In this document: positions 2,732-62,001 of the stretch, piece after piece
Layout of the letters: each line of letters begins with the position of its first letter
How positions within the stretch are numbered: position 1 is the stretch's first letter
NCBI GenBank assembly: GCA_965649765.1
Contig: OZ287751.1
Coordinates: 21,762,001 to 21,826,000 of the forward strand
Reading direction: 5' to 3'
DNA from: Bispira polyomma
Lineage: Eukaryota
Length of the DNA: 64,000 nt
The notes under the pieces: model-generated
What the model was told of the DNA's origin: nothing
Databases searched by the model: none
The model's input: only the letters and a program-made list of their open reading frames with translations
Program-made: the position numbers and the translations under genes

Positions 2732-2758
2732 AATTTTACCTTTTACATTAAATGGTTT

Positions 2759-4371: not shown

Positions 4372-5001
4372 AGGTCCAGACACACAGACCCGCATCCGGA
4401 TCGGGATCCGGATACGCATAATTATCCGAAAACGGATTTGCAATTATTCAATTCACACAGGACCGAATATCCGTCCGAATCATGTGTACAGAATGTGTGC
4501 AAAAATGATAAATTTACCGCGAAAATTATCGGTGATTTGCTATTCTGCTTATCAGTAATAGTCAATATTTCTTACATTTGTGGCTGTGTTTGTGTTATAA
4601 CTGCATAAAATTCATGTTGCTGAAGGTCTTAGGTAAGTTACATTTACCATTTGTTCAAAATAAAACAATTAAAACACTACATTTTGGATGTTTTTTTTCC
4701 CACACGTAAACAACTATTGGGAGATACTAAATTCCAAACTCCATGGGAGTATGTGTATAGTACATTTTTTGTGTGTGTGCACACATAAATCTTTTTTGTG
4801 TATGATTTGAGTTTTTATGTGTTAAAATATGTAAAAACACATGAATCAGTGTACTTAGAGAATAATTTGTTTTGTAACCCAAACATATGTGATTCTTTGT
4901 ATAAGATTTATTGAATTAAATTCACTTACCTTTAGCCATAATTTTCATGCTTGCACACAATTTTCAAATTTTTATTCTTTCTTTTAATTTACTTACAGAA
5001 T

Positions 5002-8274: not shown

Positions 8275-8980
8275 TTTGACTTGTAAAAGGTACTCAAAAT
8301 TTCGCGGGAATTTGCAAGTGCTTGCTGGAGATCTGCTTGGCGGATCCCCTAAAATTAGAAATGAAATCTGTGTAAATTTTATACGGGCCGGATCGGCGGA
8401 TCCGCATACGGATCCGTCTTGTGTATATTAGCTTCTACTGTTTTATTTCGTTTAAAAAGATATGGTTCCGGATCCTGATCCGGATGCGGCTCTGTGTGTC
8501 TAGGCCTATACTGAGACGAATAATTCGGCCGGATCATGCGTAATGAAGATGTTTTTTTTTGTGTAAATTTACCGCAAAAATGATGAAAATATACATATCA
8601 TCAACGATAGTCTGTCAGTAGATTCAATATTTTCTTCTTTTTTACCTCTTTCAAGGTATGTGCATTTGTTATTTATGTTAAAACACAGAACTGATATAAA
8701 AGCACACTTAAACTTGCATACTTTGTGTAAACATAGACATTGAGGATACATTACACTGCCAGAAAAAAAATATGTTAAACAACTGTCACTACTTTTTTTT
8801 CACTGACTATATGCATTTATTTAACTGACTGTCAAAACAGTAAATTTCGGCAGGCCCTAACAAGCCAAAAAAAAATGTAAACAAACCTAAAATCTCAAAT
8901 TTCTCCAAAAATACACTTGTCTTTGGAAATCCGATTTAGAAAAAAAATCTGTGTAAAAAAAATTCGGGTGGGATCTATAG

Positions 8981-18330: not shown

Positions 18331-18484
18331 GTCGCAAAAGAAGAAAACAAAATCTTGGATATCGTATTTTTACCAAAATTTACTAGAACGCCTCATTGAT
18401 GCAAGACGTCTTATATAGAGTAACATTATTGACAAAGGTGTTAAAATTGTAGTCCGTTACCAATGCAAATTCTTTAAACAAGGG

Positions 18485-27799: not shown

Positions 27800-28875
27800 A
27801 GTTTATGATAGTTTTGACAGAGCTAATTTAGGTATATCCCTTATAAACAGGTCAGGGTCCTGTAAGACTAGAACACAATTAAGCCTTTGGCATTTTCTTC
27901 TGACGTAGAAAACTACACAGGCAGTCGTAAATACTAATCAGGGTTATAATGCCAGTTGACAGATGATACGATTGATTTTTGTAGCACGCCCTAATTGATG
28001 CCAGGCACCTTTTAAGATGTATCTTCATCGACAAAGTTGTTCAAATCTTAGTGTGTTTCCAATGCAAAACATACATTTTTATTGACATGTACATGGATAT
28101 CGCTGAAATAACTTTAGATAAGTGACATTTCTGTGTAGGTAGTATTAGGAAGGCCTATGTTATACTACACTGCTATATTGTGGACAAATTATTTGTAAAG
28201 CAATATAGCCCCTGATTGTTAGCTTTATCAGTAATATATTTCCACCCCAAAGCCAGCTTCATTGCCATGTAGCTCTTAAGTTTGTTTTTGCTTTTCCTTC
28301 TCAGCTATAAAGTGTGATCAATCACCCTTTTTTTATTTGAAAAAAAAAACACACACAAAAAAAAAATTTTTAACAACAAAACTGTTTTTATGTTTCTTTA
28401 TAAAAATGCTACTTGTCGATTTTATGTTTCTTTATTAGAATGCACAGTGACAAAACGTTCATATCCATTAAGCAGTTTTAGATTCATAAACATTTTTCTC
28501 TGTTATGTGCTTGTGGGGAAAGTGCCACTGATGGAAGCCAAGTGCTTTAAAAGGTAAGGCTTCTGTTTTCATTGCTTCCATCACCCCTGGATGGAGTGGG
28601 AATTTTCTTCTTTTTACAAAGGACACACGTTGCCAATCAAAGGCCAGGATTTATTGACAAATGCGGTATTAAATTGCACTGTTCAAAAGATCGCCCGCCC
28701 CAACCCCCCCTCCTCTCATGCCACAGAAGTGGACGGAATGGCTTGACAGCACCTATATATAAATGTACAGAAATAGAAAACCCCAGACTGGATTTTAGGA
28801 GAACATGTTTTATTTTGCTGTGCATGGTTTTTATACATGCATTATATCAGTGGCAAATCTCTGTTTTTCTAGATA

Positions 28876-32090: not shown

Positions 32091-34549
32091 GATGAAATTT
32101 ATGTTTAAAATTTATTTTTTCCCCCATTAAAAAAAACAGTAGTCACATACCTAACTATTGTAGTATATTATATCTTTCTTAAGGCAATCGCACAACAAAT
32201 AATGTGTGTATTTTGAATACTTTGAGCTTTTTCTGTTTGTAATGTCAATGCAACTTTTTTTTAATTTTTTTTTTTCCTCAGAAAAATAATAAACACAATA
32301 GGACCAAAAGTGTCTGCATACTTTTAGGACTAAATTCAGGACTGAATCCTTGTCAAGAAGTGAACTATAGTACAGCTGTATTCTTTCACCAAAGGATACA
32401 GCGTTGGAAAGTGAATAGTGTTAATCGTGGTAATCATTTGTGAATTACACAAGGTTGACCCAATTGTGCCGCTGAAAAATGGACGTCTAAGGGAACAGTT
32501 ATACTGTTTATTGATGGAAAATGACTCCATGTCAATTTGATGAGGTTCATATTTCAGTTGAGGTGAATGCTCTCTTTGTTGAAGCTCAGGGTTTCTTTTT
32601 TCTCAAAATCCATCCAAAACTTATAATTGCCAAACATAGGCTCATATTTGTATAGTTAAAATTGTCTTATGCAAGTTTAATTCATTAGATAATGAATTAA
32701 AGTTTTTATGATTTTGACAGTTTCTTGTGAAAAGTATTATTGTGATCCAATATATTGCAATAACTAAATAATAATAGAATATATCTGGAATATCGCAGCA
32801 TATCACAATACGATTATTCAGTACATTCATACACACCCTTAATATTAACTGCTTTATAAATCTCTTGCTCTAATTCAAGTTTGACCTCATTCTGAAAAAA
32901 AGAAAATGCCTCATTTCTCAGCTGCTGTGGACACTGTTACAAAATGTGCACCTGTTACATCTGATCTAATTAGTCTAGTTATAAGTGTGGAATTTCAGTA
33001 TGAAATCTGTGCCTATAAGACAGAGGAATGGAAAAAGTGTTTGAGTGGCAATATAGACTGATCCATATTCTGCCACTCAAGTAAGAGAAGTGGATAAACA
33101 GGAAAAAAATGTGAGGGCCTACAAACAGTGTCTACTTTGGGACTGACCTCTCCTATGTCTTTTGATGGCAGTAAATGTGAGGGCCTAATTGCATATAGTA
33201 ATTAGAAGGATCTAGGAACGGTTTGTACTTTGAGACTCCTCTCAGTGATGTCTTTTGATAGCTGAGTAGAAGGCTATAACGCCAATGTTATTGAGCGTCG
33301 GGTTGTCTTACACTCGTGTGTAACGTTAGACAGCATTTAAAATACTCAATACAACTGATGGTACATAATATAGGAGATTTTTTAATGTATGAATCGTTAT
33401 AATTCATTAAGTGTGTCAATTAATTTGGATGTGAAAACACAACAATAACAAGGGTTTGATGTAGTTGTTTTATTATCATCATTATAATACAACTTGTTTT
33501 TGATCTCAATTAAGCACAATGAGAGCAACGCAGTGTTTGACATCTTAATAGAAGCTTCATAAAATAGAAGAGGCATTTATTTAGTGTATATATAACAACA
33601 GAAAAATAGTAATTTGTGTGAAAGTGAGTTCGTGAAATTGGGATTCATAATGGACAATAGATAATCTAGTTAATGCATGTCTCTACCTCAATTGAAGTTG
33701 GATATTTCAGATACAAATGGCTTCATTATACATTTGTCACTACATATAAGCTGCTCACTGGTCAGATATAAGCCATGTTTGTCCTTATTCTCAGATCTAT
33801 ACCCCTGTAGCAGCTATCTAGTATTAGGAAATATTAAAATACAAAACATGATCAGTAAGGAATCTAAAATACACCACTCTATCTAAATTTCGCCATGCCT
33901 AAAATTTAAGCCAAATCAATCAAAACTGGCGAAAAATAAGTGGAACTTAAGTACGTAAGGCAGAATAGTAAAAAAAATATCAATTTCAGCAAATATTACC
34001 TACAATTTGACACCAAAAACACATTTTCTTTAGGTTGCGAATTTTAGATACAGTGGCGAATTTAGATTTCTTACACTACAAACATAATTATGAAGCAATA
34101 ATCTGCTGTGTAATTGAAAATATTTGTGTAAAATAGGAAATTTTTTATTTTACCCAATTTCCTTAGGTCCATAGGATCTTTGAGATGGTATATATTCCAG
34201 TCTCCCCATTTATAATAATAGTAATCTTTAATCTCGTATACATGAAACATGATACAGAAAGAAAAAAAAATTATAAACACAATATACAATTTAAACAGAG
34301 AAGTAGGGAAAAAACATAAAAAAACACCAATTACAATTTGAACAGAACGCAACACCTTATGACTAAACATTTTTTTTCTTACGGACACAGGAGATCATTT
34401 CATTTATCTCAGACAAAGTAAGCATAGTGTTTTTTGATTAATTTTTTTTTATTAATATTTTTTTTTAAATTATTGTTTTCACTCTGAAATATTTCTCACA
34501 CTATGTGCCTGTGTCTTTAAAAAAAAGGTAACTCTTGTTTTGTCAATGG

Positions 34550-34753
34550 GTGAAAATAAAGTGCAGGCCTTTAAAACAGACAAATCAGCTGCAAACTGAT
34601 ACCTTGCTTACCTGATTGGTTTTCTACACAAACAGACAAAAAAATAACAGAAATAAGAACAGAAATATTATACAGGGGAAATCAATAACCTAGATGAACC
34701 TGAGTCATTTCTTGTTCACTGTGGTTTTGATTTCTGTCAAGACTGGATTGTTC
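34550..34753 (+). repeat. Left arm of a ~200-bp inverted repeat pair flanking the first RGK coding exon
   Basis: GTGAAAATAAAGTGCAGGCCTT..AAACAGACA.ATCAGCTGCAAACTGATACCTTG..ATTGGTTTTCTACACAAAC... matches the reverse complement of 38210-38409. Confidence 0.9.
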
Positions 34754-34932
34754 AGCGAATGAAACAATGCCATCATTTTTACCGATTTGGTCATTATTTC
34801 AGTTATAGAATTTTTGTTATATAAAGTGATCACAAGTTTAACAGAGGTGGAATAGATCTTATCATTTGACATTTATAATATCAGTAAGAGACTAAGTAGA
34901 CACATGTCAAATATAAAAAGGATATTCATATG

Positions 34933-35116
34933 CAGTAGACTCAGTACGAGTGGAACCAGTGTAAGTCGAATTTATGTGTAAGTGTAACCTGAGTTCTGAG
35001 GCATCAACATCAGAAAATGCTGTATATTTGCAAGGTATAAGCGCAAGCTAACAAGCTATAACTAGAACCAAATCCTGTGGATATTTGAGGTTCTAGATCT
35101 ACATTTAGTCTGCTGT
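34933..35116 (-). mobile_element. Degenerate, inverted copy of the MITE at 45648-45820
   Basis: Shared ACATCAGAAAATGCTGTAT and TATAACTAGAACCAAATC segments in reverse orientation. Confidence 0.7.
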
Positions 35117-35742
35117 CAATTAGTGAATGTTTGGTAAATGGTAGCATATTGTTGTTACTTGTCAGTGAAAAAAACTGTCGGATGGTTTAACAGCAATCAG
35201 ACTTTGAAATTGTCAGGCAGACTAAAGACTTTCTCGGGAGTGGGTATAATCCACATTTAGAAAATATAGGTACTGTTGTGTAGCAACTTCTGCATGTAAA
35301 AAGATTCAAGATTTTTAAAAGATACCTAAATAGTTCTTAGTAATAAGTAATAAATGGTTTTTGTGTCAAGCCTGCGAGCGAATACTTGGTACTTGTACTG
35401 TTAAAAGTACTTACTTTATAGTATTTTTAATTTTAGGTATAAAGTACTGTCAATTACGTTCCAATTACACCGTACATCTAGATTTTAAACAGCAACAAAT
35501 TAGAATTTTATTTAAAGTTTATATTTGTAGAGAAAACTTTATAAAAATAAAAAACATTTTCTTGTCAAAGTGGATCTTTTTAAACTGGCTACAACTCTGT
35601 GGTTTCTAGTGACATTATATTGGACAGATATTAATAAATAAATTTAAGTGAACACTGTACACCTAGGGCCGGCCATATTCTTATATGTGAACTCTGCTTA
35701 ACTTCATACTCAACTCAAATCTGGATTATCTTCTAATGACTC

Positions 35743-35854
35743 AGGGCTCATATTCACGAAGAAACTTAGCCAGGTCTTAGGCCTAAATCTATCACAAAAG
35801 TATACTGATTTAAACCCAATACTTGGCTAAGTCTCTCCATGAATATGGGCCCTG
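35743..35854. mobile_element. Short hairpin-type MITE; similar element at ~46147-46430
   Basis: CAGGGCTCATATTCACGAAGAAACTTAGCCA ... TGGCTAAGTCTCTCCATGAATATGGGCCCTG inverted ends. Confidence 0.65.
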
Positions 35855-36093
35855 GATACAGTAAACATGTCTAAAATCTTACTTGTTATTTAAATTCAGT
35901 GTTTAAAAACCCTATTGAAATGAATGGTCACAAGTATATGTTATTTCCATGCACAACGATTTTCCTGTAGCCTACATTTCAGTTTAGTATGAGTTTAAGC
36001 ATGAGTTTATTTTGATAATACCAGCCCAGAAGTACATTGGAAGATTTAGACTGTTATAGTTTGTTTTTTTCTGTGTTGTAGCGTTACTGAGCA

Positions 36094-37159
36094 ATGAGGC
36101 TTGATGACCACAGTGACTTTAACATGACAACGTACCAAGATGAATTCGACTTATACTTTGCGCGGGCGAAGCTTGATGAGGAGATGGCCCGAGAGCAACA
36201 GGAAGTGTCCGCAGTAGGCGACGCCGCAAATCGCCGCGGAAGCCTGCCGGGAGAGATGGTAGTACAGTTAGAGGTGCCCACGCATCACCGTCGGGCTTTG
36301 TCCTGCAAGCTGCCTGCCAGGAAGAAGTCCAAAAAAGGCAGCAGCAAGTCACCCCGGGAGTCGACACCCGTTATCGACCCCCACCCACGAACGGAGCAGC
36401 ATGGGGGCAATAGGGAACAGTTAGGCTCAGTGTCGCCCAGGAAGTTATCGGTGGACAGACTGTCCGTCACAGCCACCGGTGGCGGCTGCGGCAGGGGGGA
36501 TGAAGATGAGGAGGATGAGGAGGTCCAACAACAAGGGATCAGCATGAACTATATCACCGAGACCACACTGAGAGCGCCCAGTCCACGCATGATGGGCAAG
36601 TGCCAGTCTGCACCCCACAGCAGGTCCAGCTCCTGGAAGAACCAGCGCCGACCCAGTAGGAGCCTAAAGCAGAAGACCTCTAATACTACCACAGACTACT
36701 CCCAATACAACAACGGCAACAACGGAGAAGACTCGCCGGGGGGCGGCTCCAGCGGACACGGCAGCGTGACACATTTCGAGGAGGAGGTCACCAAAAAACT
36801 AGAACAGTTAAAGCTGCTACAAGCCGAAGATGTGTGCGTGGTGAGGAACTTCAGTACGTCGTCCAGAGGCCTCATCAACAGGGGCGACTCCTTCAAACGC
36901 AAACCCAGAAGCTCCACAGCCAGCATCACCTCGGACGGAGGTGGGAGTGGTGGTGCTGGTGGGGGTGTTGTATCCCCTGGTGGTGGTGTTGGTTGTGGTA
37001 GGGGGCGCCACTTGAGTGTGGGCAGTCAGGGATCGTCCGCGGAAACTCCTCCGCCCATTCAGAAAGTGCTGGTGGTGGGAGACCGTCGAGTGGGGAAGAC
37101 TGCCTTGCTGCAACAGTTCATGACCTCAACCTATATGGGTGCTGTGGAGACTAGTTTTG
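36094..37159 (+). CDS. Rgk: RGK coding exon 1 (long low-complexity N-terminus plus P-loop); exon begins at 36082
   Basis: Acceptor TTTTCTGTGTTGTAG|36082; in-frame TGA two codons before the ATG; donor TTTG|GTGAGT. Confidence 0.9.
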
Positions 37160-40100
37160 GTGAGTGTTTTTATTTACTGCTTAGTTACACTATTTATTTG
37201 TCAACAACTTAATCTAATCTCGTCAATTCAGTACTAGTGAATGCTAACTACTAACTAAATCGAATCCCCGAATTGCAGTGTTGACCAATGACATGACACA
37301 AAGACCTCAATAATGAGGTTACTCAATGCAAAGCAGTGTAGAAAATACTTTTGGATTTTGTTTTTAATTACTGCTTTTATTATATACCATTTAATTGTCA
37401 ACAACTCAAACAGCCCCAGTTAAGTCAAACTCTTTTAATGTGTTGAATTTCTAACATTTTATGTAAAGGTTGTGCATTTGTACTTCCTTTTGTGGAAAAT
37501 GTGACCCTTGTTAACTAAATGTTCTGCTTAAAATATTTTATAATGGTTGTCCCTAGGATATTTGACCTTTAACAGTGTAGTCCTAATGGTCATATCCAAA
37601 AGAGACTTATTCAACTGATTCTATTGGGATAAATTAAGATAGTAAGTAATAAATAAGGCTTTTATAAGCATTGGATCAGAGTGTATATTTTTTGATAAGG
37701 TTACTTTGTTCAATGAGTGAAGACCTATTGGTCTTGATGTTTGACTTGCGAACTGCGAATCAATAACAGGATTTTATAGGGTTACCTAGAGGTAAATTGG
37801 TGGTTGTGTACGATTTTTTTAAATAGATTTTTTTACAGATCTTGTACATAACTAGGGCAAACTCATGGAATGGTGTAATAATATACTGCATACTGGGATT
37901 TAACCTGGGTAAAGCTCAGTAGGTTTAAAAAAAATACTTGCCCGTTTTATGGTAAACAAAGTAAAACCACTTTATGTAGAAGTTTGTTAGGCAAGCCCAT
38001 TTAAGTAGAGCTCTGTAAAGTCTTCTTTTTTTGAGACACATTTGCTATCCCAACAAAATTACCCTGTTAAGTGGAAATCCTGTTTATGTAGAGGTCTATT
38101 TCTCCTGGTTTCTTGAGGTTTCGACTGAAAGGGAGCTTAAACTTCTAAAATAAATTCAATCTTAAAGATATATAAACATAATAAAAATGAAGATTTAAAG
38201 TAACAAGAAGAACTATCCAGATTTTACAGAATCAAACCCGTGTAGTGAACAACAAATGTCTCAGGTCACCTAGGTTATTGTTTCCCCCCTGTATGATATT
38301 TCTGCTCTTATTTCTTTTGTTCTTTTTTTGTTTGTTTGTGTAGAAAACCAATCAAGGTATCAGTTTGCAGCTGATCTGTCTGTTTATAAGGCCTGCACTT
38401 TATTTTCACTGCTCTGTGAGAAATTCTAATTCTGTTGATGAGCTTAGACCAGAGGAAGCCAAATATTTACATAGAAGTTAATTCAAATGTATCAAGCTGA
38501 GCGAACTAACTGATAAGTTATTTTTTTATATAACCTGTGTAATGCTGCTTACAATCCTTTTTGTGTGTAGATAAATGTCTGTGATAAGGGTGATTGACTG
38601 AGATTTTTTGGACAAGTGACATTTTTCCCTTAATATATCATAATAAAATGTCAAATCCCACTCTTTTTTTATCAAACTTTCTGTGTAATTTTCATTCATT
38701 AAAAACACCAATATACTCTGTAGTCAGTTCATTTAAACAGTTGGTATAAATGAACTTTGTTGATCTCAAAATAGTACTTAGCATATGACCTGTGATGATA
38801 AAAAACGTCAGGTAGCAAATTGACAACACCTTTGGCGTAGAGACACATGAAGCGTGTATAAGAGTGTGTCATATAAAGAGAGAAAGAGAACAAAGACTTC
38901 TTTGAAGTCCTAAAAATAGAATTCCAATATTCTCCAAAAATATTCCAGCTTGAACTCATACCCTCCTTCATTCCATTAAAGGGCAAAAGTGAAACTTTCT
39001 GTTGTTGTTTTGAAAAAAAAACAACGTGTGACCATTTGGTTTAGTTAGTAGAGCTTTTCAGCACTGAATTGAATATACATATATTTAGTCAACAAAGTTG
39101 AGTTTAAGTTTGACTGTGTATTGTTAGGGCAAAAGTAAAATAATTTTGTAGTATTGAGTGATATTGTAATTTGTGAGCTTCATATTAACAGCATTGAGTA
39201 CTTTGTAGTTAGGTGCTATTTAAAAAGGCGTTTTTTTGTTTTCAAGCGTGGTCCCCTTGAATATAACCGAGTCCCTCCAATATAATTTTTGTCAGTTAGA
39301 TTCTATCTTAAAGCATTAGGGGAATATTTTTTTTAAATACTTGGGCTTTAACATGGTGACCTAATTATTAAAGGTCACATGATCCTGTTGGTTTGTTTTC
39401 TCAGACAGCATTAGTCAAAGATCAATGAAATTTGGCATGAAAATTGTCAAGGCAAGTGTCCGGACGCCTATCTGTCTATTTTACATTTTTAGTTTAAAAC
39501 AAAAAAATTTACATTAAAAACTGAATATAAACAGAGTTTGTGGAAGAGATATAATAACTTGGCTGTGTTGTGTAAACAAAACTGATGTATCTTACATTAT
39601 GTAGCCCCCCCCCCCCCCCCCCACCCCCCCACCCCCCTGCTCACCACCATTATATCACAAAAGAAAACATCTCCATCTGCCAATCATTACACCAGATCCC
39701 AGTAGATTATGCTCCATTGCAACATTGTTGTTGTATTTAGGTCAAAGTCACACTATGTTTTATTGTTTGCTACCCAATTTATGTGTAATCTGATATTTAT
39801 ACATTTTGATGATGCCTAAATGTAAATGTAAAAGTTATCATTGTTTATAGTCAGTTGCCTTGAGACAAGTATTAAAGTGTATGAAAGTTATTCTTTAGTA
39901 TCAAGAGTAAGGAATCCAAAATATTGCCAATGTCTCTGGAATTTAGGTAAGTAAGGCAAAGTAGTCACAAATATCTCAATTTCAGCAAATATTACCCACA
40001 ATTCTACCTAAAACATAACATTTTCTAGGTGGCGAATTTCAGATATATAGTGGCAAATTTTAGATTCCTTACTCTAAATATCGTTGCATCTTTCAAATGA

Positions 40101-43100: not shown

Positions 43101-46100
43101 AAAGAAAAAAATTTCCTTCTAACCTGGCTTTTTTTAAAGGTATTCTTGTTCAGAATGACATCATTGGCATATGTTGCTGCAAGTGTTGGTTTTTTAGAAT
43201 CATAACTCTCTAATCATGTAATACGTACACTGCTCCAGTATTAATAGGATATTCTTGGAAAACCTTTTTTTGTAAATACCTGAGCAGCATTATAAGTGCG
43301 TGACGTTAGGTGAGTCAGAATTAAGGAATCTAAAAATTTGCCGCTGTATCCCAAATTCGCCACCCCTTAAAGTTTAAGCCACATCAATAAAAACCGGAGC
43401 GAAAAATAACTGGAATTTTGTAAGTAAGGCAAATAGTCACAAAAATCTAAATTTCAGGAAAAATTACCCATAATTCGACCAAAAAACAACTGATCTTCTA
43501 GGTGGCGAATTTCAGATACAGCATTTGGCTGGCGAATTTAGGGTATTCCTTACATCTAGCATGTGCTAGTTACTACAACTCCTGACGTAATTAACTGCCT
43601 AGTTCACAGAGCTTTAAGTAAGTAGTATGATGCCACACAGCTGTTAATAAAGCCTATTTATTAATAAAAAACACATAAAAGTTTTTGAATATGACTGCAT
43701 TAATGGGGGGGGGAGGGGGGGGGTGTATTAGAAATGTATTAGGTCCTTCAATTGCTTGCTTCTTTCAGGACGTGTGGTCTTCTAGGTATGTGAGCTGATT
43801 AAAGGACCACCCAATATCATCACGTCATTCAAAATAATCCTCAACCACTGGAAGTAGGACGTCCATAAATATCCTTATAGTGAGTTTTTTTGGGAGAGAC
43901 CACCCACTAACATTGATAGTTTGCGTGAAAATCTTTTAAGAAGCATGTGTTATATATGAGGTCCATGTGACTTGCAAAGAAAATCCAAATCGCAATAAGG
44001 TTATTAGCCTTTTTGATTTAGCAAGACCCTGCAGAAACAATGTAATAAAGAAACAAACATTAATGTGTCTGATATATATTATAATAATAATAATTATTAT
44101 TATTCCTTTAATAAATAAAGCACATTTTGAACATCACTGTTATTAAATGCGCTTTGACATTATTACTCCTGCCTGGGTTCTTCCAGTTGTCAACCAATTG
44201 TTCAGTCTCAGCTCCCTCAGGAAGCATACTATCCGTGATATGGGATGTTTTCATAACAACCAGAAGAAAATAGAATTGGCATTGAACTAAAACAGGAATA
44301 AATATTTTACATTATTAGTTACAATGAAATATTATTGATTCCCTTTGGAAAGTTAATATATCTATCTTGGCATATTTAGAATTTATGATCACAACCTGCT
44401 CTAAAAAGCTCTATAATATATTTCATAAATTGTTCATTTAATGCATAGCAGGTCATTGTTTTTGTTGGTGTTATCCAACTCATAATACTTCTAGTGTGCC
44501 TAATGACCATTACAACAATCTGAAAGGTATGATAGCCAACAGTATCCCAACTAGAAGTAAATCCATAATAAGTCAACCTGTCATTATATTAGAAGCTTGG
44601 ACACTAAGAGATGGTCAAATGTGTTCAACCTAAAGATAAACAAGCTGCTTTGAATTTTATCCAGAAAGCAAATATTAAATCTAATGTAATGGTCACCCAG
44701 TCAAAGGAAGTTGTTTTGCTGAAGGAGAAAGCTGCTTAGCGAAAGTTTTACTGAAGTGTTTACAGAAAAACCCATTTAACTCGAACTCTGTTGACTCAAT
44801 TCCCCCTTTTTATGTGGAGAAAAATCTGTAGTCCTACAAAGGCATTTTCTTTTCAAATCTCACCCTGTTAAGTGGAAACCCTGCTTTAAAGTATTTTTGA
44901 CTTGTCCCTCGAGGTTCACCTTAAGGGTTCAAATGTATTTTTTTTGTTTATTGGAAGCTTAAAATGTTAGGAACTAGCAAAAGCTTGACACAATTTAGTG
45001 GTTAGTTGATGACCAGTTTGTATACATTAAATATGTACCTAATCTGCTGAAAAAAGTACAGTAAAACCAGAGACCAAATAATCTGTCCCAGTTAGCAAGA
45101 TTCCTTGCTGTCATTTTGATGTCAGAATCGAGAAAAGGGACAGAACGGAAACCGCTACAAAAACGTAAATTTAGTCGGACGTGAAATGGCGGACAGATTT
45201 GTGTTGATGTTTGTGCTTGTAAATTTTGCTTCCGTATGATATACAACGAATAAGGATATGTATCTATTTCAACTAGATTCTATCTCTATAAATGATGCCG
45301 ATTTTGATTTATGTTTTGTCAGTGAAAGCTGCTCTGTTAGAGTGAGTCTGTCTGTCAGTAAGAAAAAGCCGTCATTAGCGAAGAAAAACCTCTATTATCC
45401 AAACTTGTATTTGAATATTTGATTTGGTGAACCCATTTGCACACTCCCAAATTGATGTTTTCCCTCTTTTGTTGTATACTAAAATGCCTCTTCTATATTA
45501 TATGATCTTTCTTAATTATCCAAACAAAATCTAGCTCTCCCAACAAATTCAGATAATAGAAGTTATACTATAATTTTAATTACATTTACAGCAGAGCTAT
45601 TATAGATGGCAGAGTTTAAGGCTGTTCCAAATTAGTCTGCATATGTACAGTAGACTCTGTATAACTAGAACCTCCAATATTCACAGATTTGGTTCTAGTT
45701 ATAGTTAACTTCCACTTATACCTATAAAAATACAGCATTTTCTGATGTTCGGACCTCGAAACCGATTCCACTTATACCTAAATTCAACTTACACTGGTTC
45801 TACTTATACAGAGTGTACTGTAAATAAGGCTCTCATCCATAAACAATAAACAGATGTTAGATTATTGTGGTCAGTCATCTTATAGTGTGTAGGAACAAAA
45901 GACTATACTTGACTGTGAAACTCTGGTAACCACAATCTTATGGTAGATGCTGCCATTCTGAGTCGAAATCTGTATCCGTTTGGCTTACAGTTAAAATATA
46001 TACTACATAATACAATACTGATAAATTTTAATGGTAAACAACAACAAAATTTCAGGTTGATGTGGCATATATTTGTTTTATTTGCCATAAATGACTTTCT

Positions 46101-49100
46101 TTTTTTTTTCGGTTGGATTAAGTCGGACAATTTTATTAAGAATGTACCAAGTGTTGTATTCACAAAAAAAAGGTCCTAGTCTTAACTTTTGAGTCCTAAG
46201 GTCAATATTGTAGTCTTTGGTTTTATCCAAAAAAAAAAGGTTAGATTCTGGTCTATATAAGTCCCAGTGACAAGTAAGAATAGGTCTGTGTTTAGTAGTG
46301 TTATTATTAACTTTAATTGCTCCTAACACTTTAAGACTAACACAGCAGACGATACGGTTAAATATTTTCGACAGAAATGTTAAGACTTAAGTTAACACTT
46401 TAAAGACTCCTTTTGTAAATACGGCCCCTGGACAATTAGTCTCTGGGCCCTCCGATCTCATTAATGCTCCCAATTGGTCAGTGATTGGGTTGTCCAGGGG
46501 AATAACGAGATCCCAATGCTAATGGTATAGACTAATGATCAGCTATCACATGTTTTCCCCTACCCCCCCCTACCCCCTACCCCCTCCCCAATTACTAGCA
46601 ATTAGGGATTCTCTTAGTACGTTTTATACTCTGGGAGACACTTCATTTTGGTGTCTTACTTTTAGTATTCGTACTGAAATGGTGTAACAAATCTGAATTA
46701 TGTTTATTGAGATATGGCTGAACTACAGTCAAACCCTTTTAAGTACAACTCTATTAAGTGAAATTACCTGTTAAGTAGAAGTCATTATAAGGTCCCAAAT
46801 TTACCATGTTAAGCAGAATTTCTGTTAAGTAGAACACATTTTTATGGCCCCTTAGTAGTCAATTTAACAGGGTTCCAATGTAAATTTTGTTCTTAAGTTG
46901 GCAGTAATCATTTCTTACCAGAAAAAGTAAATAATGCTCCAAACAACGAAGTACATTGGTGGCTGATATTAGGGGCTTAGACAGCACCAGCCAATATTGA
47001 GTGGATGTGACAATCAGGATATTGTGAATTGTGTAGGAGTCCATTCTTTCCTAATCAAATGACTTTTCTCTCAGTTTGACGAAATCCTTTGTAAATTGGG
47101 GATTGAGAAGAGGCTGGTTGGTGTCGTCATTTTATGAAATAAATCCCGGCTTATTATCTTCATTTCTGCAGATTTAGGCTCAATGGAATTGGGGGTGGTC
47201 TATATATATATATAGCCTGTACCACTGTTAGTGGAGGTTTCCATGCAGGCAATTTTCTGAGGAAATCAGCCGGTGGCAATTTTCGTTGATTTCGAAGTAC
47301 AATGTATCTGTTTCAATGTGAGAGCAAAGCTGATGGGCGGCGAGCAATACAAGGCAATTTTTTCGCTTTTGGTATCAGAAACATAAAATTGGTGGTTGCC
47401 ATTGCACATTGTTGACAATTGGAAACGTAGATTTAATTATCCAGTTTGGATATTTGTCTTCAGTGAAGACTCAGTTACTCGTAAATTAGGTATTATATTC
47501 GATTACCAGTAATGGTAATCAACAAATGTAACAATTGTATTTGCACTCATTTTCTTGGAAACATTTTAGTTTTTCTCTAAATTTAGAATGACACTTGATA
47601 TTTATCAAAATGTGAAGCTAAAATATCAGTAGAAAAGATTAGTAGAAATGCAAAAATGGCTATTACATTTTAGAGTGAAACTCTGAAGGGACCATAACAA
47701 ATTTGTTTACTTAACAGAAATTCTACTTAATAGGGTGCATTGTAATTAGAAATATATCAATAGGACACCTTACAATTACCTAACTTGTAATTCCACTTAT
47801 CAGAGTTCTACTTCAAGGGGGTTTGACTGTATATGTTTTCACCGTCTGACATAGAGGTTATTTTAAGGTGAACCTTAAAAAATCTCTTTTAGTCAAATTT
47901 AATGGGAACCAAAAGAAAATGAACCCCATAAAGTAGGACTCTGATAAGTGGAATTACCTGTTAAGTAGAAATTATGTTTAGTAGAACAAACTCTTATGGT
48001 ACTTTCAGATTCGACTTAACAGGGTTCCACTGTTCTCCACTTTTTAAGTTATCAGTGTAGATATAGAAAAAAAGACAAGAGCTTTGAGGTCATTATACAA
48101 TGGTACCGGCAAAGTATACAGTTTCATCCAAGATTGTGATCATGTTGATGTAACATTAAGGGACCAGTTAATATAGGGAAGACAGGGAGTGATCTGAGTT
48201 TGTCCAGTCCAGCAGCGAGGATAGAACCTTGGACCCCTAGGTCCGAAGTCATACATGCTAATCACTGGGCGATGTGAGAGAACACCTATATGACTTGATA
48301 TCATAGATTAGCTGATAATTTTGGACTTAGCCTATCTGTACTTTATTTGTAGATGTTAAATGTGTCTTCACATTTTTATAGTGTATATCAGATGTTACAT
48401 AAAGGAAACCCTCTCCAGATGCTCCTGTTGATGAAGTGTTTCTCTTATAGATAAAAATAATGTGCTCATCTTTTTGTGGATTATAAACTCTCTGCTAATA
48501 TGTGTACATTTTATTGCTGGAAAAAAAAATCATTTGATAACTTTCCTGGTATGTGTTGTTTTATCATTCTATCTCAACAGTATTTTATTACTCACTGACA
48601 GAAATATCTGTTTTTAAAAGCTTTCCAGAACAACATAAAAAGCACACAACTGCTTTCCACTGTGTAACCTCATTATTTAGGTCTTTGTGGCATGTCATTG
48701 GTTGACACTGCAATTCTGGGATCAGATTTACAGTAATTTATCACAGAAGTTTTGTATTTGTCATTTATCCAGATCTAAGCGCCCCTTTTTACTAGTATTC
48801 CATAGGGAAAGAGTGATAAAGTTGTCCTCAGAGTGATCAAGTTGCCCTCTGCCCCAACCCAATCTTTATGGTAGAGAACAGAAGCTACCGACATAAAGCT
48901 GTACCACCCTCATGTGTAATAATAATAAACTCTTCTAAATTTGAAAACATTTTCATTAAATATGTGTCTAGACTGATGTAGTTGTGTACGTTAGGCTCTG
49001 TGTGTAAGGCATGAAGCAGTCTGAGTTGATTCTTCAAAAATTTTACCTTTAATAAAAGGATACAACTAGTTGTTTAAACAATAAGTAGAATGAAATACTG

Positions 49101-55100: not shown

Positions 55101-58100
55101 TGTGGATATTCTCCAAAGTATAAGGAAATAAGCTGTACTTTATTTAACACTCTTTCTTCCTTGGCTTTAGGCTTTTAGTGTTCAATATTTAAAGTCCAAT
55201 TTTATTAAGGTCCAGTTAAAGCCAGTTTAGGTTTAAACTTCAAGGTACAAAGAAAATTCTTTCTACTACTTAAGCAGGATTTCCACTTGACAGGATGAAT
55301 TATACAACAAAAGGTCTTTGAAGGAGGAATAAACATTTCTTTCCAGATAAAAGGGAAATTGACTTATCAGCTTTCTACTTTAAAGGGGTGGTGTGACTGT
55401 ACTGTACGAACATATATTATCCACATTTCTGGTCCATCTGAATATATTTCATTTGATGAACTTATTTTCACTCATCTCAAAGTATTATCTCTTCCTATAG
55501 AAGTTTTGTACCAAAAAAGAGCCTCTCCTATTTTATTAACTTTCTATTAACTGAACAATGATACCAGTAAGTTTGGACAACACAGCTTCTACTGTGTATT
55601 GTCTGTTAAGATTAGATATAAATACCTTCATCTTGAGATGAATCCCCCCATGGGGTTTTCCTGATTGAATTGCCATTTTAAACTCTTACCCCCTTGGAGA
55701 AATATTGTTGTATATTTGAAAGAAATGTATGTTTACATTAATGGTTCAAAAATTCAGTTTTTAGTACCCGAGTATTTGGATTTTTGTGCTCAGAAATATC
55801 TGTGGTTTTTGGATTAAAAACAGACCTGTTTAGAGTTCAACACAGTTCCTTAATGTAATCAAGTTATTGTCAACTTTAAACATCATAGTTCTTTAAGGCA
55901 GCGAAAAAAAAAACAAAAAAAAAAAACACAAAAAATATCTGTGGGTTTATGAATAAAAATGAATCAGCTCAGACTTCAACAGAGTTAAATGTTATCAAAT
56001 TACATTGTTACGAGTGTTAACTTTTAAACATCATCATTATTAAGCCCTATGTTTGTTAAGGTTTAGACTAATAAATTCACTTATGTGGGTAATTACTTAA
56101 TGTGAAATATGTGGTTATAACGAATGTAGGTAATTTACAGTATACACTAAATTACTCAATATGTTAAAGATGTGGGTAAATTCCATTCATTTGTCTTAAT
56201 GTACATACAGAACATTTGCCTTAACATACATACAGAACAGGTATATTATACACCTTTTAGGTGATTAAGTTATTAGAGTATCACCAGAAAGCTAATGTTT
56301 TGTGCTGTTCGACAATTCCATTATTTTTATTTCTTACTAATGACTAATTTTGAAAGTATATATTTGCAAGCTACTTCTATGTATTAAAACATTTCCTTCT
56401 AAAATCGCCTGTAAAATTGCTTTACATGAAAACCTCAACAATTGCCAAGTGTTTTCAAACATCAGCTGATTGCTGTCGCCCATTGCCGACATTAAAGCCT
56501 AGACTATTTAAAGGAATTCTAGCTAATTTTTTCCAGCCTTGTGAAACTTGAATAGTTAAAACAATTATAAGGACATGAAAACATAGACTTAAACACTCAA
56601 TAACCAACACATGTTTTTATTCTTGTTGTTTTATCAGATGACGACTGTGAGAAAACTGTGACTGTCTTATTGGACGGAGAAGAAACAATGATCGATTTTA
56701 TTGACGTCCCCGTGGAGTCGGTAAGTACACTGTTGTGTACTTCATCAGAATATTCTATAGCAGTATATGTTTAGTTGAGTTCTAAAGGGGCAAATATACC
56801 TGTCCAATTTTATAGCGAAAATTGCCCTTACCATTTCCTAACAATAGCTTACGTGTTGGAGCCGTCCAATTCACTGGCCAACGAAGATAAACGTTTTATG
56901 CTACCTTAAGCATACCAGTTTTGCTTCTAAATCCTAAAAAAAAAATTAAATCAAACAAAATAGGCTACACCTGGTGGACGCCACCTCTGAATCCTGTTAA
57001 ATTTCGATTTATTTTCAAACAGCCACATTGGTATACAAGTCTCTCAATACTGTGGCCTACTAAAATACCTGTACTGGAAAATTATAACTCTGTTTTCGTG
57101 GTTCAAATCTTGAGCTGTTGTACATGTGATGACTTTTGATTTCCCTTTGTTGTGGAAAGAAAAATCTTTGATTTTAAAAAGAAAAAAAATTTTCCTTTAA
57201 AAAGTCTACCCTGTCGAGTAAAATTACTGCTTTTATAGTTAGGAAGAGGGATTTCTTCTGAAACACTTGAAGAGGTTCATTACTTAAAGCAGTTTGACTG
57301 TATTATAATAATAAATACCCTCCTTGCGGAATACGTAACACAGTGGATATTTGGAATGCAGTATTCGTGCTATCAAAATTTCAGCCACGTTTATATCAGA
57401 TCACCTAAGATCATAACATCTAGTGTGATCTGGATAGAATGGGTGAAAATGCTCATTTGCATATCATTCACCAGATCATGCCCAAGGTATGCCCTGTTTA
57501 TCCCAGGATGTGCCTAATTTTTACCAGATCTCACAAGTTTATCACCAGGCCATACCAGATTTAAGCATATAATTATTACACGTTTATGCAATCTTTGCTC
57601 CAGATAACACCAGTCCTGTCCAGAGCAGACAATATTGAGTAGTTTATGCCCCATTTATGCTCAGTTCAAGCCCCGATCACACCCGTTGTCACTAGTTCTC
57701 TTCAGATGTGCCTTTTTAGGGCCAACTTAATGCACGGAAGTTTTAAACATGTCCAACTCTTCTGTCTCTGACACTAGTTCTTGCTGATTTCTCCAGTTTA
57801 TGCCCATATACTCCAGATCACACTGGTTCTTGAAATCAGTAGTAAATGGCTCCATAGATCTTGAAGGTGTGAACGCGGTTTTAGAAACATAACAAAAATA
57901 TCTGCAACCTATCCCTCCACCCCCCTAGCTGTTTACATACTACAGTGGGGCAGTGTTGACCGTTTACATAACAGTTGAGTCACTTACTGTTAGATTGTAC
58001 ACTCATTTCCACAGACAAGTTGATGGTAATTATTCCATTCCGTGGGGGGGGGGGGGTGGGGTGCAAGAACTGTGTCACAAGATAACAAACACGCCATGAG

Positions 58101-59819
58101 TCCGCGGCGCAAATATTGACTCATTTGCTTGAAGCTGTCATTCCAGTAAATAAAGCCGGCTGTTAAAAACAAAACAGAGAACGGTTTTAAGAACTTCATC
58201 GTCTTGTATGATGAGTCAGTATATAATGTTGATGATTTAATAGATGCACCAGAATTTTACTGTTGAATATATGAATTTAATATATAAACACAGAACAAAT
58301 CAAGATTTAACTGTATTTCTTGTGATTCATACAATTGGATCTATTTAGTAAATTTACCAAAACGCTTAAAAGCCCGGATAGTTTTAGGTCAGCTTAGACC
58401 CAGAAAAATAGTTATAGTGTCTATTTTCTTGTCAACTTAGTATTGTTTATTGTGACAGTTGTTCACTGTGCTGGCCCCCCCATATTACTTCACAGAATAT
58501 AACAGTTATTCAGTCTTTGGTCCAGTTCTAAGCAATGAACTCTATTGTGAAACATCAGCCGCTATGCAAAGAAACAGTTCAGTTATGCAAGAATAGGGCG
58601 GGGGGGGGGGGGGGGGGGGGGGGTTAAATAATTGCCCCTACTTTATAACACCTTTTATCTAATGACAAAAACCCTTGTGATCTCTAACAAAGCATTATAG
58701 CCTTGAATTGAACCTTTGCTGGGTAAATAAATAAAAAAACATTTGCATTTTGTTTCCATATTGGCAATTTTTGGGAGGTGATTAGGAAACATTTATTGAC
58801 CTCTTGTTATTTTTCTCTTTTACTAATTTTTAACCGAAGAGTATTTACGTGACAGTATGCCAATAGGCAACTGCTATATTTCAGACAAGAGCTAAGAAAT
58901 TTCTGGTCATCTTTATTTTAAATGTTACTAGTGATTTGGAATTTACTGCCTTTATTAACATTACCGTAATCATCATGCAAAAATTGCCCTGTAACATTAA
59001 CAAAGAGGGCCTCAATTAACAAGATATGATAGATTTTTAACACGCCTAATTGATGCCAGGCATCATCTCAAGCGCAACATTATTGACAAAATTGTAAAAA
59101 TCATTGTCCGCTTCCATGGCAAATTCGTGATCGGGGTAACATGGAGGAGAAAGATGTTTGAGGAGGGTAAGCGAATGTGAAGATATGGGTCTTAAGGTTA
59201 CTTAAGGTTACTTCTAAAGCAAGTAAAGTTATATGGTCATCTTACTTCAAGAAATAGAGCAATTAGGAGATTGGAATTAGATTCATAAACTTGAATTTTT
59301 TGGCGAACTTTTAGAAAACTTAAAGCCTATCTCTTCAAACTCACTTACCTCCCGTTTATATCCCCGATCACGAATTTGCATTGGAAACTGACTACAATTT
59401 CAACAACTTAGTCAATGGTGTTGTGCTTTAGAAGATGCCTGGCATCAATTAGGCACGTTTAAAATCTGTCATATCATGTCAATTCCCCTCCCTGTACACC
59501 CCCACATCCTTCCTTACGATGTGACTGTATTTTTTCTCTTACTTTTCGATTGGTTAATGGATTCTGTTGCACTTTAGAAGATGCCGCACATCAATCAATA
59601 AGGTGCGTTAATCAATAAAGAATACTACACAGGTTGTACATACAAGTACAAACTTGTCTGATGTCATAAACTTGTCCACCTTTTTATGGGTTACATAAAA
59701 ATGTTATCCTAAATGTTAGCTACGATAAAATATAGTCAAAAAAAGATTTACTTTACTTGAATCAAAATTCACTTAAAATTACCAAGGATTTAAAATTTTT
59801 CCTGGCATTTAAAACACTC

Positions 59820-59850: not shown

Positions 59851-61839
59851 AAAAAAAATAAATAAATAAAGTTTATTACTTGGGACAATTTTATGACAAC
59901 TTCAGTGTACTATGATTGTAATTTTAAACATTATAAAACAATGATTTTTATTGTTATTCATATCTGTGTCTCTTTCCATTTCAATCTGTTCACAGGATCT
60001 GAGCCAATATGGTGCTGTTGACGGATACCTCATGTGTTTCTCTATCACCAACAAGCCTTCATTCCACTACATGAAAGATGTCCTAGAATCGGTGGTGAAA
60101 ACCAATGCAGCATCTCCGCCCGCTCTCATCGTGGTGGCCAACAAGAGTGACCTTGTCAGAAAGAGAGCTGTGTCTGAAAACGGTGAGATTTGGTCAGAAA
60201 GAATGAACAAAATATAAACATTGTTGTGACATACAGTCAGTGCTTCCACTGGCCACTGTTTTTGGGTCAATTTTGGAGGTCATGCGCAAAATTAAAATGG
60301 TTGTACAACAATGGCTAAGAACGGTGTCAAAAAAAAAAAAAAAATATCTGCCCAGATTTGGCCCCTCAATCTTTTATTTGTGTGTATCTCATGAAATTTA
60401 TGCTTGAATTCAAGCACATATGTGCATAAACGGAATCACTTACAGTAAAACTTGTGCTGGCAACCACTCTCAATGGTGAGTTGTGACCATTCTAAAATCT
60501 CCCCATGATTTTTGCATCAAAATTGGCCATGTATACAGAAAAGTAATACAGCCACTGATGTTCAAAGTCAATCAGGAGTAGTGAATTATAACAAACAAAT
60601 CTGAACATTGTTAAGACAAGGTGTGAGACTGGGGGCTCGGTTACTCGATTATGGGCCAAATTTTTGTGAAATTCGCTATTCGGGGTATTGAAAATGTTTT
60701 AAGTTAAAACTGTTAATTTTTTATTGCTTGTATTTATTATATAAAATAACTTCATCAAAACAATAATGTATGTCTAATTCCTGCAGGTAATATACGTTTT
60801 CCTCTTAATTTCCAATATTCCCGAAGAAATTTGCCTTTATTTTTCGCTAGATTATGTTTAAATCAGCCGCCATATTGCTAGACTGGTATCTGAGATTGGT
60901 GCATACTAAATCCACGGGTACCCGGTTTCAAAATGGTTAGACCGTAGCGATTTCTCGGATTAATGTTGTAGGTAAACTGCAAAAGTTGATACAGAATACG
61001 GTACATGTCTCATTAATTTCTCCTAAAATAAATATTTGTGTTTAAATTTTGTATTCGTATTTTTTTTTTTCCTTTAGATTAATTTATGTTATTTTAATTC
61101 TCTATCAGTTGGTTATTTCACTTTTACTATTGTGTAATCTATACCATTTTTACATAAAAAAATGAAAACTAATGTGCTTAAGGGTTTTACAAACCGCCGA
61201 GTACACGTCACAAATGTACACTACAGTACAGGGGACGACACGTCACTGCACAACAGTTACATTCGCACCAACCATGATACAGCACCACAGTTTCCATATA
61301 AACTACATCTCCATGACAGGGAGGGAAGGTGAAATAATCAATAAATCACATGCACAAGCATTATAGAAATACGCAACAACACAAAATAGTTTTTAGAGAT
61401 TTCTTCCAAGTAAAATTGCAGTGTAGTGTTGTGTGGTATAGGAGGCAGTCTGAATAATCAATATAATATATTGTCTTATTTCTATTTATTTGTAGTGTCG
61501 TGTTGTGTCATCAGCAGTCTGTAAGGCCCTTTACAGTAGGGTCAATAAACTTTATTATAATTATTATTATAATACTTTTTTTCAGAAGCCCGACTGCTTT
61601 GTATCAAGAATGGGTGTAAGTACATCGAAGTGTCCGCAGTTATCAACCATAAAGTGGACGATTTACTGGTGGGCATCACCACGCAGGTCCGCCTCAACCC
61701 CAGACGCCACGAGAGCAGAAGGAACGCCAAAGACGCCCAGAAGAACGTGTCTTGTGTGTCTGCAAAGGGACTAATGCAGCTGATCTTCAAAAGGAATCAC
61801 CAGACGTCCAAGTCGTGTGATAACCTCCTGGTGCTTTAG
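36094..61839 (+). CDS. Rgk: RGK-family small GTPase (Rad/Rem/Gem/Kir-like), 4 coding exons, 529 aa
   Basis: join(36094..37159,56638..56720,59996..60182,61586..61839) = 1590 nt, in frame, all GT-AG with phases 1/0/1. G1 GDRRVGKT, 'EKTVTVLLDGEE', G4 NKSD ('NKSDLVRKR'), G5 EVSA. C-terminal RGK signature 'SKSCDNLLVL*' with Cys at -7 and no CAAX. Confidence 0.92.
38210..38409 (-). repeat. Right arm of the inverted repeat pair (partner of 34550-34753)
   Basis: Reverse complement aligns with 34550-34753 along its length with a few indels. Confidence 0.9.
41789..42640. mobile_element. 852-bp non-autonomous DNA transposon, 13-bp TIRs, 5-bp TSD AGAAA (hAT-like termini)
   Basis: CAGGGTTCGCGCT ... AGCGCCAACCCTG. 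AGAAA at 41784-41788 and 42641-42645. Empty site seen in the paralogous host repeat at ~16810-16835. Confidence 0.8.
42855..43110 (+). mobile_element. Near-complete tRNA-derived SINE; relatives at ~26860-27003, 30140-30250, 50960-51105
   Basis: GGGGGCCGCGGTAGCCTAGTGGTTAG (A box), GGGTTTGACTCCC (B box), conserved 'CAGTGTAGAACCTTGA.CAACT' body and A-rich tail. Confidence 0.8.
45648..45820. mobile_element. Tc1/mariner-pogo-type MITE, 25-bp TIRs, TA TSD
   Basis: TA|CAGTAGACTCTGTATAACTAGAACC ... GGTTCTACTTATACAGAGTGTACTG|TA (2 mismatches). Confidence 0.85.
52303..53181. mobile_element. 879-bp non-autonomous TTAA-target DNA transposon (Kolobok-like)
   Basis: TTAA|GGCTTTAGTGACGTAAACACA ... TGTGTTTACGTTACTAAAGCC|TTAA. 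GG..CC termini fit Kolobok better than piggyBac (CC..GG). Confidence 0.8.
54330..54685 (+). repeat. Local tandem duplication of a ~130-140-bp unit, each copy preceded by a G tract
   Basis: TTTGACATGT.ATCACTGTCACAGTTT.AGGTTAAAA...TGTGATGACAAGGCCT.TCAATTAT.AATAAGAGATT at ~54330 and ~54542. Confidence 0.85.
56638..56720 (+). CDS. Rgk: RGK coding exon 2 (not in the ORF track): (D)DDCEKTVTVLLDGEETMIDFIDVPVES
   Basis: Acceptor TTGTTGTTTTATCAG, donor TCG|GTAAGT; beta2/beta3 strands of the Ras fold; phases fit the neighbouring exons. Confidence 0.9.
57375..57882. mobile_element. Probable degenerate non-autonomous DNA transposon with short CCAGA/AGATC repeats
   Basis: Dense CCAG(A/T) repeats; right end GTGTGAACGCGGTTTT; left end only weakly complementary. 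Confidence 0.35.
59014..59484. mobile_element. Foldback MITE with ~135-bp inverted arms; fragments of the same family at ~18370-18475, 27955-28070, 59560-59610
   Basis: GCCTAATTGATGCCAGGCATC / GATGCCTGGCATCAATTAGGC and GCAAATTCGTGATCGGGG / CCCCGATCACGAATTTGC are perfect inverted segments. Confidence 0.85.
59996..60182 (+). CDS. Rgk: RGK coding exon 3 (contains the G4 NKxD motif)
   Basis: Acceptor CTGTTCACAG, donor AACG|GTGAGA; 'DGYLMCFSITNKPSF..LIVVANKSDLVRKRAVS'. Confidence 0.92.
61586..61839 (+). CDS. Rgk: RGK terminal coding exon (G5 motif and C-terminal tail)
   Basis: Acceptor TTTTTTTCAG; 'EARLLCIKNGCKYIEVSAVINHKVDDLLVGITTQVRL...SKSCDNLLVL*'. Confidence 0.92.
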
Positions 61840-61924: not shown

Positions 61925-62001
61925 TGTCTTTCTGCTGAGGGACTAATGCAACTGATCTTCACCAGACGTTCAAGTCTTGTGGTAACTTCCTGGTACTCTA
62001 A
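61925..62001 (+). pseudogene. Degenerate duplicate of the RGK C-terminal coding tail, lying in the 3' UTR
   Basis: Aligns with ~61753-61839 (GGGACTAATGCA.CTGATCTTCA...CCAGACGT.CAAGTC.TGTG.TAAC.TCCTGGT.CT.TA.) with a 10-nt deletion. Confidence 0.8.

What the first reader, a model, noticed from the sequence alone, without database searches (positions are those of the whole stretch)
34550..38409. Inverted repeat pair brackets the AUG exon of the RGK gene: candidate circRNA / back-splicing module
Seen: 34550-34753 and 38210-38409 are reverse complements over ~200 bp, highly similar by eye. They lie ~1.3 kb upstream and ~1.05 kb downstream of the 1078-nt exon 36082-37159. I saw no other copy in the window, and the unit has no TIR or SINE hallmarks. 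A second inverted pair (34933-35116 / 45648-45820) also straddles this exon, and the downstream intron is long (19.5 kb). Known: flanking reverse-complementary intronic sequences plus long introns promote back-splicing or exon skipping, often of the start-codon exon. Inference: a circle would translate from ATG 36094 across the junction (TTT G|CG TTA CTG AGC AAT GAG GCT TGA) into a 362-aa product with the whole N-terminal extension and P-loop but no rest of the G domain; alternatively circularisation could down-regulate the linear mRNA. The unit also contains CAGCTG and ATTGG motifs, so a duplicated enhancer is an alternative.
Basis: partly seen in the sequence, partly recalled or inferred. 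Interest (0 to 1): 0.75.

Follow-up and report, generated by a model that had tools for sequence, protein, structure and literature searches.

The report
Private inverted duplicate flanking RGK exon
A 200-base stretch found only twice in this animal's genome sits in opposite orientations on either side of the start-codon exon of an RGK small-GTPase gene; it is likely an old local DNA-repair copy that could pair in the RNA, and no data here show that it makes a circular RNA.

Summary
The inverted pair is real: 34550-34753 / 38210-38409, 83% over 210 columns, 175 of 194 ungapped positions identical. The second pair belongs to a family with 1,570 candidate copies, so its placement is ordinary. 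The gene model holds (529-aa RGK, 19,478-nt intron, 362-aa circle frame).

Size, spacing and sharp ends fit repair-mediated duplication of nearby DNA. A non-coding, genome-unique twin in direct orientation (164 nt, 84%, 2.1 kb apart) lies 70 kb away. No other lone, genome-unique inverted pair turned up in 1.86 Mb, so the layout is uncommon.

The arms would form a strong RNA duplex (-250 kcal/mol) if both are transcribed. Nothing shows selection for pairing: G-U wobbles versus A-C mismatches are 5:4, and distant relatives lack a matching pair. No RNA run was available, so back-splicing is untested. A microexon-like motif in the arms found no support in homologs. Earlier scan notes read similar pairs in other genomes the same way. 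Verdict: probably a neutral scar, with a testable circRNA side-case.

The parts
34550..34753 (+). Left arm of the two-copy inverted duplicate, upstream of the AUG exon (probably intron 1)
38210..38409 (-). Right arm, in the 19.5-kb intron after the AUG exon
36082..37159 (+). AUG-bearing RGK exon (ATG 36094; N-terminal extension and P-loop; phase-1 donor)
56638..56720 (+). Next coding exon (DDDCEKTVTV...)
59996..60182 (+). Coding exon, Ras domain
61586..61839 (+). Last coding exon, ends KSCDNLLVL-stop; whole protein 529 aa
34488..34543 (+). About 55-nt end of a dispersed repeat (162 candidates; copies share a sharp end on this side, as in retroposed elements), 6-10 nt outside the left arm; not part of the duplicate
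38054..38143 (.). Dispersed repeat fragment just inside the right arm; not part of the duplicate
34612..34623 (-). Microexon-like motif in the left arm, antisense to the gene: pyrimidine tract, AG, 12 nt, GTAAGC
38304..38362 (+). Sense acceptor-like site in the right arm (AG at 38342-38343); the 8-nt indel removes the strong donor, leaving 13 nt to a weak GTATCA
34933..35116 (+). Left member of the second pair: high-copy repeat
45647..45820 (-). Right member of the second pair: same high-copy repeat

Best explanation
The two arms are one ~200-base stretch present twice, in opposite orientations 3.46 kb apart around the start-codon exon of an RGK gene, and the second copy was likely made once by DNA-break repair copying a nearby template and has likely drifted neutrally since. 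Shown: two copies only, sharp ends, about 10% substitution divergence, no family elsewhere. Inferred: synthesis-dependent strand annealing or a template switch as the route; which arm was the donor is unknown. Predicted: if the transcript starts upstream of 34550, the arms would pair and could favour some back-splicing or skipping of the AUG exon, as a by-product and not as a selected switch.
For: Two copies and by read-contig depth. Length (~200 nt) and spacing (3.46 kb) lie inside the range for proximal repair-mediated duplications: mean 162 bp, maximum 619 bp, 824 of 1,136 within 5 kb, with one opposite-orientation example inside a gene (PMC2671141, passages). A lone, non-coding, genome-unique twin of the same size and age exists 70 kb away in direct orientation (164-165 nt, 84%, 2,130-nt gap), so this genome makes such doublets where no RNA pairing is possible. 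Two older multi-kb local inverted duplications were also found in the 1.86-Mb sample. There is no strand bias toward pairing: 5 G-U wobbles versus 4 A-C mismatches, and the sense duplex (-250.1) is no stronger than the antisense (-255.5 kcal/mol). Homology does not extend past the arms (inner score reached by 243 of 1,500 random flanks). The arm has no hit in 79 related loci and no Rfam match at E<=1.
Against: The layout is uncommon. Only 32 of 4,948 random exon-sized blocks (0.6%) have an inverted pair of >=200 bits with both arms within 2 kb. Of 5 lone two-copy inverted doublets (100-620 nt, >=80%, gap <=5 kb) in the sample, ours is the only genome-unique one; the other 4 are repeat families. 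The arms are near-symmetric around the exon. The outer half is somewhat better preserved (5 versus 14 mismatches, Fisher p=0.051; KS p=0.13). No target-site duplication or flank microhomology is visible at the junctions, and the empty site could not be checked. The G-U test has only 9 informative sites, so its power is low.
Confidence: 0.65

Rival explanations
1. Selected reverse-complementary match: the arms pair in the pre-mRNA and are kept because they drive circularisation and skipping of the AUG exon, lowering RGK output.
For: Genome-unique, tight, near-symmetric bracket, rare in the null. 179 of 204 left-arm positions pair across in a fold of both arms with their flanks and the spacer removed. 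The downstream intron is long and the exon carries the AUG. Such matches promote both back-splicing and skipping in C. elegans (10.1101/2021.02.28.433292, passages). An acceptor lies before the ATG here and in 5 of 7 relatives.
Against: No G-U bias. Of 14 related loci with enough flank, 2 had a long bracketing pair, both multi-copy within their own contig and farther out, and 1 had a 38-nt pair; these relatives are distant, so the test is weak. The position of the first exon is unknown.
Confidence: 0.13
2. Orphan transposon ends or two local insertions of an element whose family is otherwise lost.
For: In this genome, 5 of 7 other sample-private inverted pairs tested proved to be repeat families, and in several the hits recur as opposed pairs, as transposon ends do.
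Against: No third copy in the assembly or read contigs. No target-site duplication. The enclosed DNA is a conserved host exon in its normal orientation.
Confidence: 0.08
3. Duplicated DNA regulatory element: both copies are kept as enhancers (E-box and CCAAT box), and the orientation does not matter.
For: CAGCTG and CCAAT/ATTGG lie in both arms, in the better-preserved outer half. Both motifs occur together in 1.3% of 6,844 random unique 204-nt windows.
Against: The motifs were picked after the fact. Keeping 11 bases at 90% identity happens about 3 times in 10 by chance (own arithmetic). The conservation gradient is borderline. No chromatin data.
Confidence: 0.07
4. Fossil microexon: the right arm once held an in-frame 12-nt exon (adding ENQS after the P-loop exon); the left arm is a backward copy made before an 8-nt deletion removed the donor. 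The remaining acceptor could still give a truncating 13-nt or terminal exon.
For: The motif is expected 0.011 times per arm from its density in the sample (99 in 3.7 Mb of strands). Its length fits the phase-1 intron. One tubeworm gene model is 4 residues longer at this junction.
Against: Junction lengths in 29 full-length homologs run continuously from 11 to 16 residues (3, 7, 14, 2, 2, 1) and none carries ENQS. No such motif was found in 94,984 downstream bases of related loci. The window holds 9 such motifs on both strands, one of them at a real acceptor.
Confidence: 0.04
5. Remnant of a larger inverted duplication, or the breakpoints of an inversion.
For: Two such old inverted duplications occur in the sample, one 48-61 kb upstream of the left arm.
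Against: No further homology on either side, also beyond the flanking repeats. An inversion between the arms would flip the exon out of the gene. A contig spans the right arm with both flanks in the reference orientation.
Confidence: 0.03

Closest known systems
Repair-mediated duplications of proximal DNA (Pace et al. 2009, PMC2671141; abstract, passages and section 14 read), and the 'doublets' of Thomas et al. (known here only through that paper)
   Same: Short (<620 bp), low-copy, donor and copy within 5 kb; can carry splice sites; can land in the same gene in the opposite orientation.
   Different: Described in vertebrates and found inside transposons, where the empty site shows direction and junction scars. 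Here the host is probably an annelid, the direction is unknown and no junction scar is visible.
Reverse-complementary matches flanking circularised and skipped exons (C. elegans zip-2 and others; bioRxiv 10.1101/2021.02.28.433292, passages read)
   Same: Complementary intronic arms on both sides of an exon, not derived from a repeat family.
   Different: There the circles, the skipping, the deletion effects and (for zip-2) conservation across five species were shown. None of these is shown here.
AUG circRNAs (bioRxiv 10.1101/328104, passages read)
   Same: Start-codon exon next to a very long intron.
   Different: AUG circRNAs mostly lack close inverted repeats and showed no translation in human and mouse data, which weakens both the need for the arms and the 362-aa product.

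Membership tests
Proximal repair-mediated duplication | 50-620 bp, two copies | tested here: met
   204/200 nt; 2 copies
Proximal repair-mediated duplication | Donor within 5 kb | tested here: met
   3,456-nt gap
Proximal repair-mediated duplication | Junction scars (microhomology, filler, deletion) against an empty site | tested here: inconclusive
   No flank microhomology or duplication seen; no empty site available
Proximal repair-mediated duplication | No poly(A) tail or retroposition marks | tested here: met
   Junction sequences; the adjacent repeat end is a separate family
RCM-driven circRNA locus | Complementary arms able to form a stable duplex | tested here: met
   -250 kcal/mol duplex versus -37/-33 self folds
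RCM-driven circRNA locus | Both arms inside the pre-mRNA | tested here: inconclusive
   Acceptor at 36081 and in 5 of 7 relatives; one weak donor-like site between arm and acceptor; strand skew uninformative
RCM-driven circRNA locus | Back-splice junction reads | not testable with these tools
   No RNA holder listed
RCM-driven circRNA locus | Conservation or compensatory change in the arms | tested here: inconclusive
   G-U 5 versus A-C 4; only distant relatives available
RCM-driven circRNA locus | Loss of circle on arm deletion | not testable with these tools
   Needs an experiment
Terminal inverted repeats of a DNA transposon | Further copies in the genome | tested here: not met
   the same search found 26-294 candidates for control families
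Terminal inverted repeats of a DNA transposon | Target-site duplication | tested here: not met
   Outer flanks differ; age could have erased it
RGK small GTPase (host gene) | Ras domain, long N-terminal extension and RGK-type C-terminus shared with proteins named RAD/GEM/REM-like | tested here: met

The most novel reading that the evidence does not exclude
A one-off local duplication created a private, non-transposon RNA stem around the whole N-terminal and P-loop exon of an annelid RGK gene and was then kept by selection as a switch that diverts transcripts into an AUG circle or a start-less skipped message, tuning a likely calcium-channel inhibitor. The sense acceptor inside the right arm would offer a competing, truncating exit when the stem is open.
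Probability: 0.1. Interest if true: 0.65.

Novelty: new member of a known kind. Interest (0 to 1): 0.3.

Why it matters
If neutral, it is a clean invertebrate example of a repair-type local duplicate that happens to bracket an exon, and a reminder that 'unique in the genome' does not imply function. If the stem is used, it would show how a single repair event can create a back-splicing signal without transposons. The gene family regulates voltage-gated calcium channels (own knowledge; search listing only), so removing the start-codon exon would be a direct dose control. One divergent-primer RT-PCR decides the first step.

Tried and rejected
No RNA holder listed: three runs from one study, which cover introns evenly and behave as DNA. 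This is no evidence on expression. The first metagenome scan with the single exon found no relative among 595 stretches; the alignment scan gave 79 loci, all distant. Strand skew as a sign of transcription: positive at 24-34.5 kb (z 2.8 and 4.3) but absent in the known intron (z 0.7 and 1.4) and present downstream of the gene (z 4.4), so uninformative. An apparent inward extension to 34819/38146 under lax scoring was not significant. Rfam found nothing. The microexon idea failed the homolog test. Direction of copying could not be settled. The wide read-laying run was swamped by repeats and could not test an inversion allele properly. The doublets paper could not be fetched. Paper searches 'short paired duplications'+'inverted' gave 0, 'RGK'+'microexon' gave 1, not read, and 'circRNA'+'annelid' gave 23, with none of the 10 listed titles on RGK. 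No supplements were read. Controls left untested genome-wide: 9 of 15 direct doublets, and 2 of 8 relaxed inverted pairs (both pieces of the two larger duplications). No structure or complex prediction was run, as it does not bear on the question.
Full report
Observation. A self-comparison of the window finds 34550-34753 against 38409-38210 at 83.3% over 210 columns. A global alignment gives 175 matches, 19 mismatches and 16 gap columns, including one 8-nt indel, a corrected distance of about 0.105. The arms lie 1328 nt before and 1050 nt after the 1078-nt exon. The second pair is also present, at 78.8%.

Host gene. The exon encodes the N-terminal extension and P-loop of an RGK small GTPase. 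Three more coding exons (56638-56720, 59996-60182, 61586-61839) complete a 529-aa protein. The closest named homolog is from a tubeworm, so the host is probably an annelid (inference). The intron after the P-loop exon is shared with many homologs, whose genomic frames run out at the same place.

Copy number. The window lies on contig C4 of a 1.035-Gb genome. Each arm finds only itself and its partner, and so does a 30-nt pattern with 3 mismatches. The tool warns that it skips very common words, so I checked independently. Contigs from three runs of one study, laid at 80% likeness, give depth over the outer half of the arm equal to the left plus the right contig only, and only the left contig over the inner half. 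The second pair has 1,570 candidates. Dispersed repeats abut the pair at 34488-34543 and 38054-38143 but are not part of it.

Null. I fetched 1.8 Mb from nine places in the genome and compared everything with everything. There are 93 inverted pairs of at least 150 nt and 80% with a 0.5-10 kb gap; 4 have no distant copy in the sample, ours included. A random exon-sized block is bracketed by a pair of at least 200 bits in 32 of 4,948 draws with arms within 2 kb, and in 1,763 of 4,928 with arms within 20 kb. So loose brackets like the second pair are routine, and the tight one is not. Thirteen inverted pairs bracket this exon, and 12 have distant copies in the sample.

Controls. Of 7 other sample-private inverted pairs searched genome-wide, 5 are repeat families and 2 are two-copy; those 2 are pieces of old multi-kb inverted duplications. 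Among lone doublets of 100-620 nt within 5 kb there are 5 inverted, ours included, and 15 direct. The 4 other inverted ones are all families. Of 6 direct ones tested, 4 are families, 1 is full-length only locally though parts match elsewhere, and 1 is strictly two-copy. That one is non-coding, 164-165 nt, 84% identical, 2,130 nt apart and isolated: a twin of our pair in direct orientation. Private local doublets therefore arise in this genome at roughly one per megabase (a rough figure from one or two cases), which means hundreds genome-wide, some of them inverted and around exons (inference). Against this, I found no second lone inverted example.

Origin. Pace et al. describe repair-mediated duplications averaging 162 bp, up to 619 bp, mostly within 5 kb, sometimes carrying splice sites, with one case copied in opposite orientation inside its own gene (PMC2671141; abstract, passages and section 14). 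Our pair fits the size and distance. Its ends are sharp: no significant extension inward (243 of 1,500 random flanks score as well) or outward, nor beyond the flanking repeats. No target-site duplication or flank microhomology is seen, so the junction hallmark is unproven and the donor arm unknown.

Function as RNA. The arms would form a duplex of -250 kcal/mol, far beyond their self-folds, and 179 of 204 left-arm bases pair across when both arms are folded with flanks and no spacer. Any 90%-identical inverted copy would do the same: the antisense duplex scores -255.5. Mismatch types show no preference for sense-strand wobble pairs (5 versus 4; low power). Whether the left arm is transcribed is open. 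An acceptor precedes the ATG here and, by eye, in 5 of 7 close relatives, and only one weak donor-like site lies between arm and acceptor. In 79 related loci the arm has no match. Of 14 with enough flank, 2 have long bracketing pairs that are multi-copy within their contigs and 1 has a 38-nt pair; these relatives are too distant to refute conservation. In C. elegans such matches promote both circles and skipping (10.1101/2021.02.28.433292, passages). AUG circles in mammals mostly lack close inverted repeats and showed no translation (10.1101/328104, passages). My guess is a 35-45% chance that some back-splice reads exist, and about 10-13% that the stem is a selected switch.

Splice-like motif. 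The left arm, read on the minus strand, holds a pyrimidine tract, AG, 12 nt and GTAAGC (34623-34612). In the right arm the same acceptor is in sense at 38343, but the 8-nt indel removes the strong donor. Use of that acceptor would give a 383-aa or 360-aa truncated product. The motif is expected 0.011 times per arm, but it was noticed after the fact, 9 such motifs occur in the window, and 29 full-length homologs show no plus-4 class or ENQS at this junction apart from one longer gene model. I keep it as a minor lead.

Earlier scan notes. None lies near this place. Several notes on other genomes describe inverted pairs around exons and mostly reach the same neutral reading; I did not test them and had this reading before seeing them.

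Verdict. A real, genome-unique inverted doublet, best filed as a new member of a known kind (local repair-type duplicate), with the anatomy but not the evidence of a back-splicing module. Interest 0.3.

Noticed in passing
G000:C4 about 14-26 kb upstream of the window (L023-L024; C4:21735600-21747900): Old local inverted duplication with arms of several kb, nested decayed matches of 66-86%, and repeat-derived DNA between them; the one segment tested is two-copy genome-wide.
   Followed up: partly
L030:316-479 and L030:2610-2774: Lone non-coding direct doublet, 164-165 nt, 84%, two copies in the genome; used as a control.
   Followed up: yes
L192-L194 (C7:20162000-20183500): Old inverted duplication with roughly 10-kb arms; the segment tested is two-copy.
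   Followed up: partly
window 187-3803, minus strand: Retrotransposon with a 693-aa reverse transcriptase frame (Pfam RVT_1, weak RNase H) and neighbouring frames, DIRS-like by recalled layout; a related copy lies about 70 kb upstream.
   Followed up: no
window 4942-6255 (+), 6201-7025 and 8062-8427 (-): DDE_Tnp_4 transposase frame broken by a stop near 5853, with opposed frames that may be its partner gene; Harbinger-like by recall.
   Followed up: no
window 59014-59484: Palindromic element with 123-nt arms (82%), related to 18388-18472 and 27987-28071; MITE-like.
   Followed up: no
window 37143-37212 and 37337-37409: A 70-nt direct copy (77%) of the exon end and donor region lies 190 nt downstream, with no distant hit in the sample; overlaps an 82-nt match to 48649-48730.
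   Followed up: no
window 61753-61838 and 61925-62000: The end of the last coding exon is repeated about 170 nt downstream at 76%, a second small local duplicate in this gene.
   Followed up: no
L021, window coordinate about -54245, minus strand: A 935-residue open frame with no distant hit in the sample; probably a neighbouring gene, not identified.
   Followed up: no
P0057 and P0061: Two chiton RAD-like isoforms differ by one residue at the same P-loop exon junction, suggesting tandem acceptors there.
   Followed up: no
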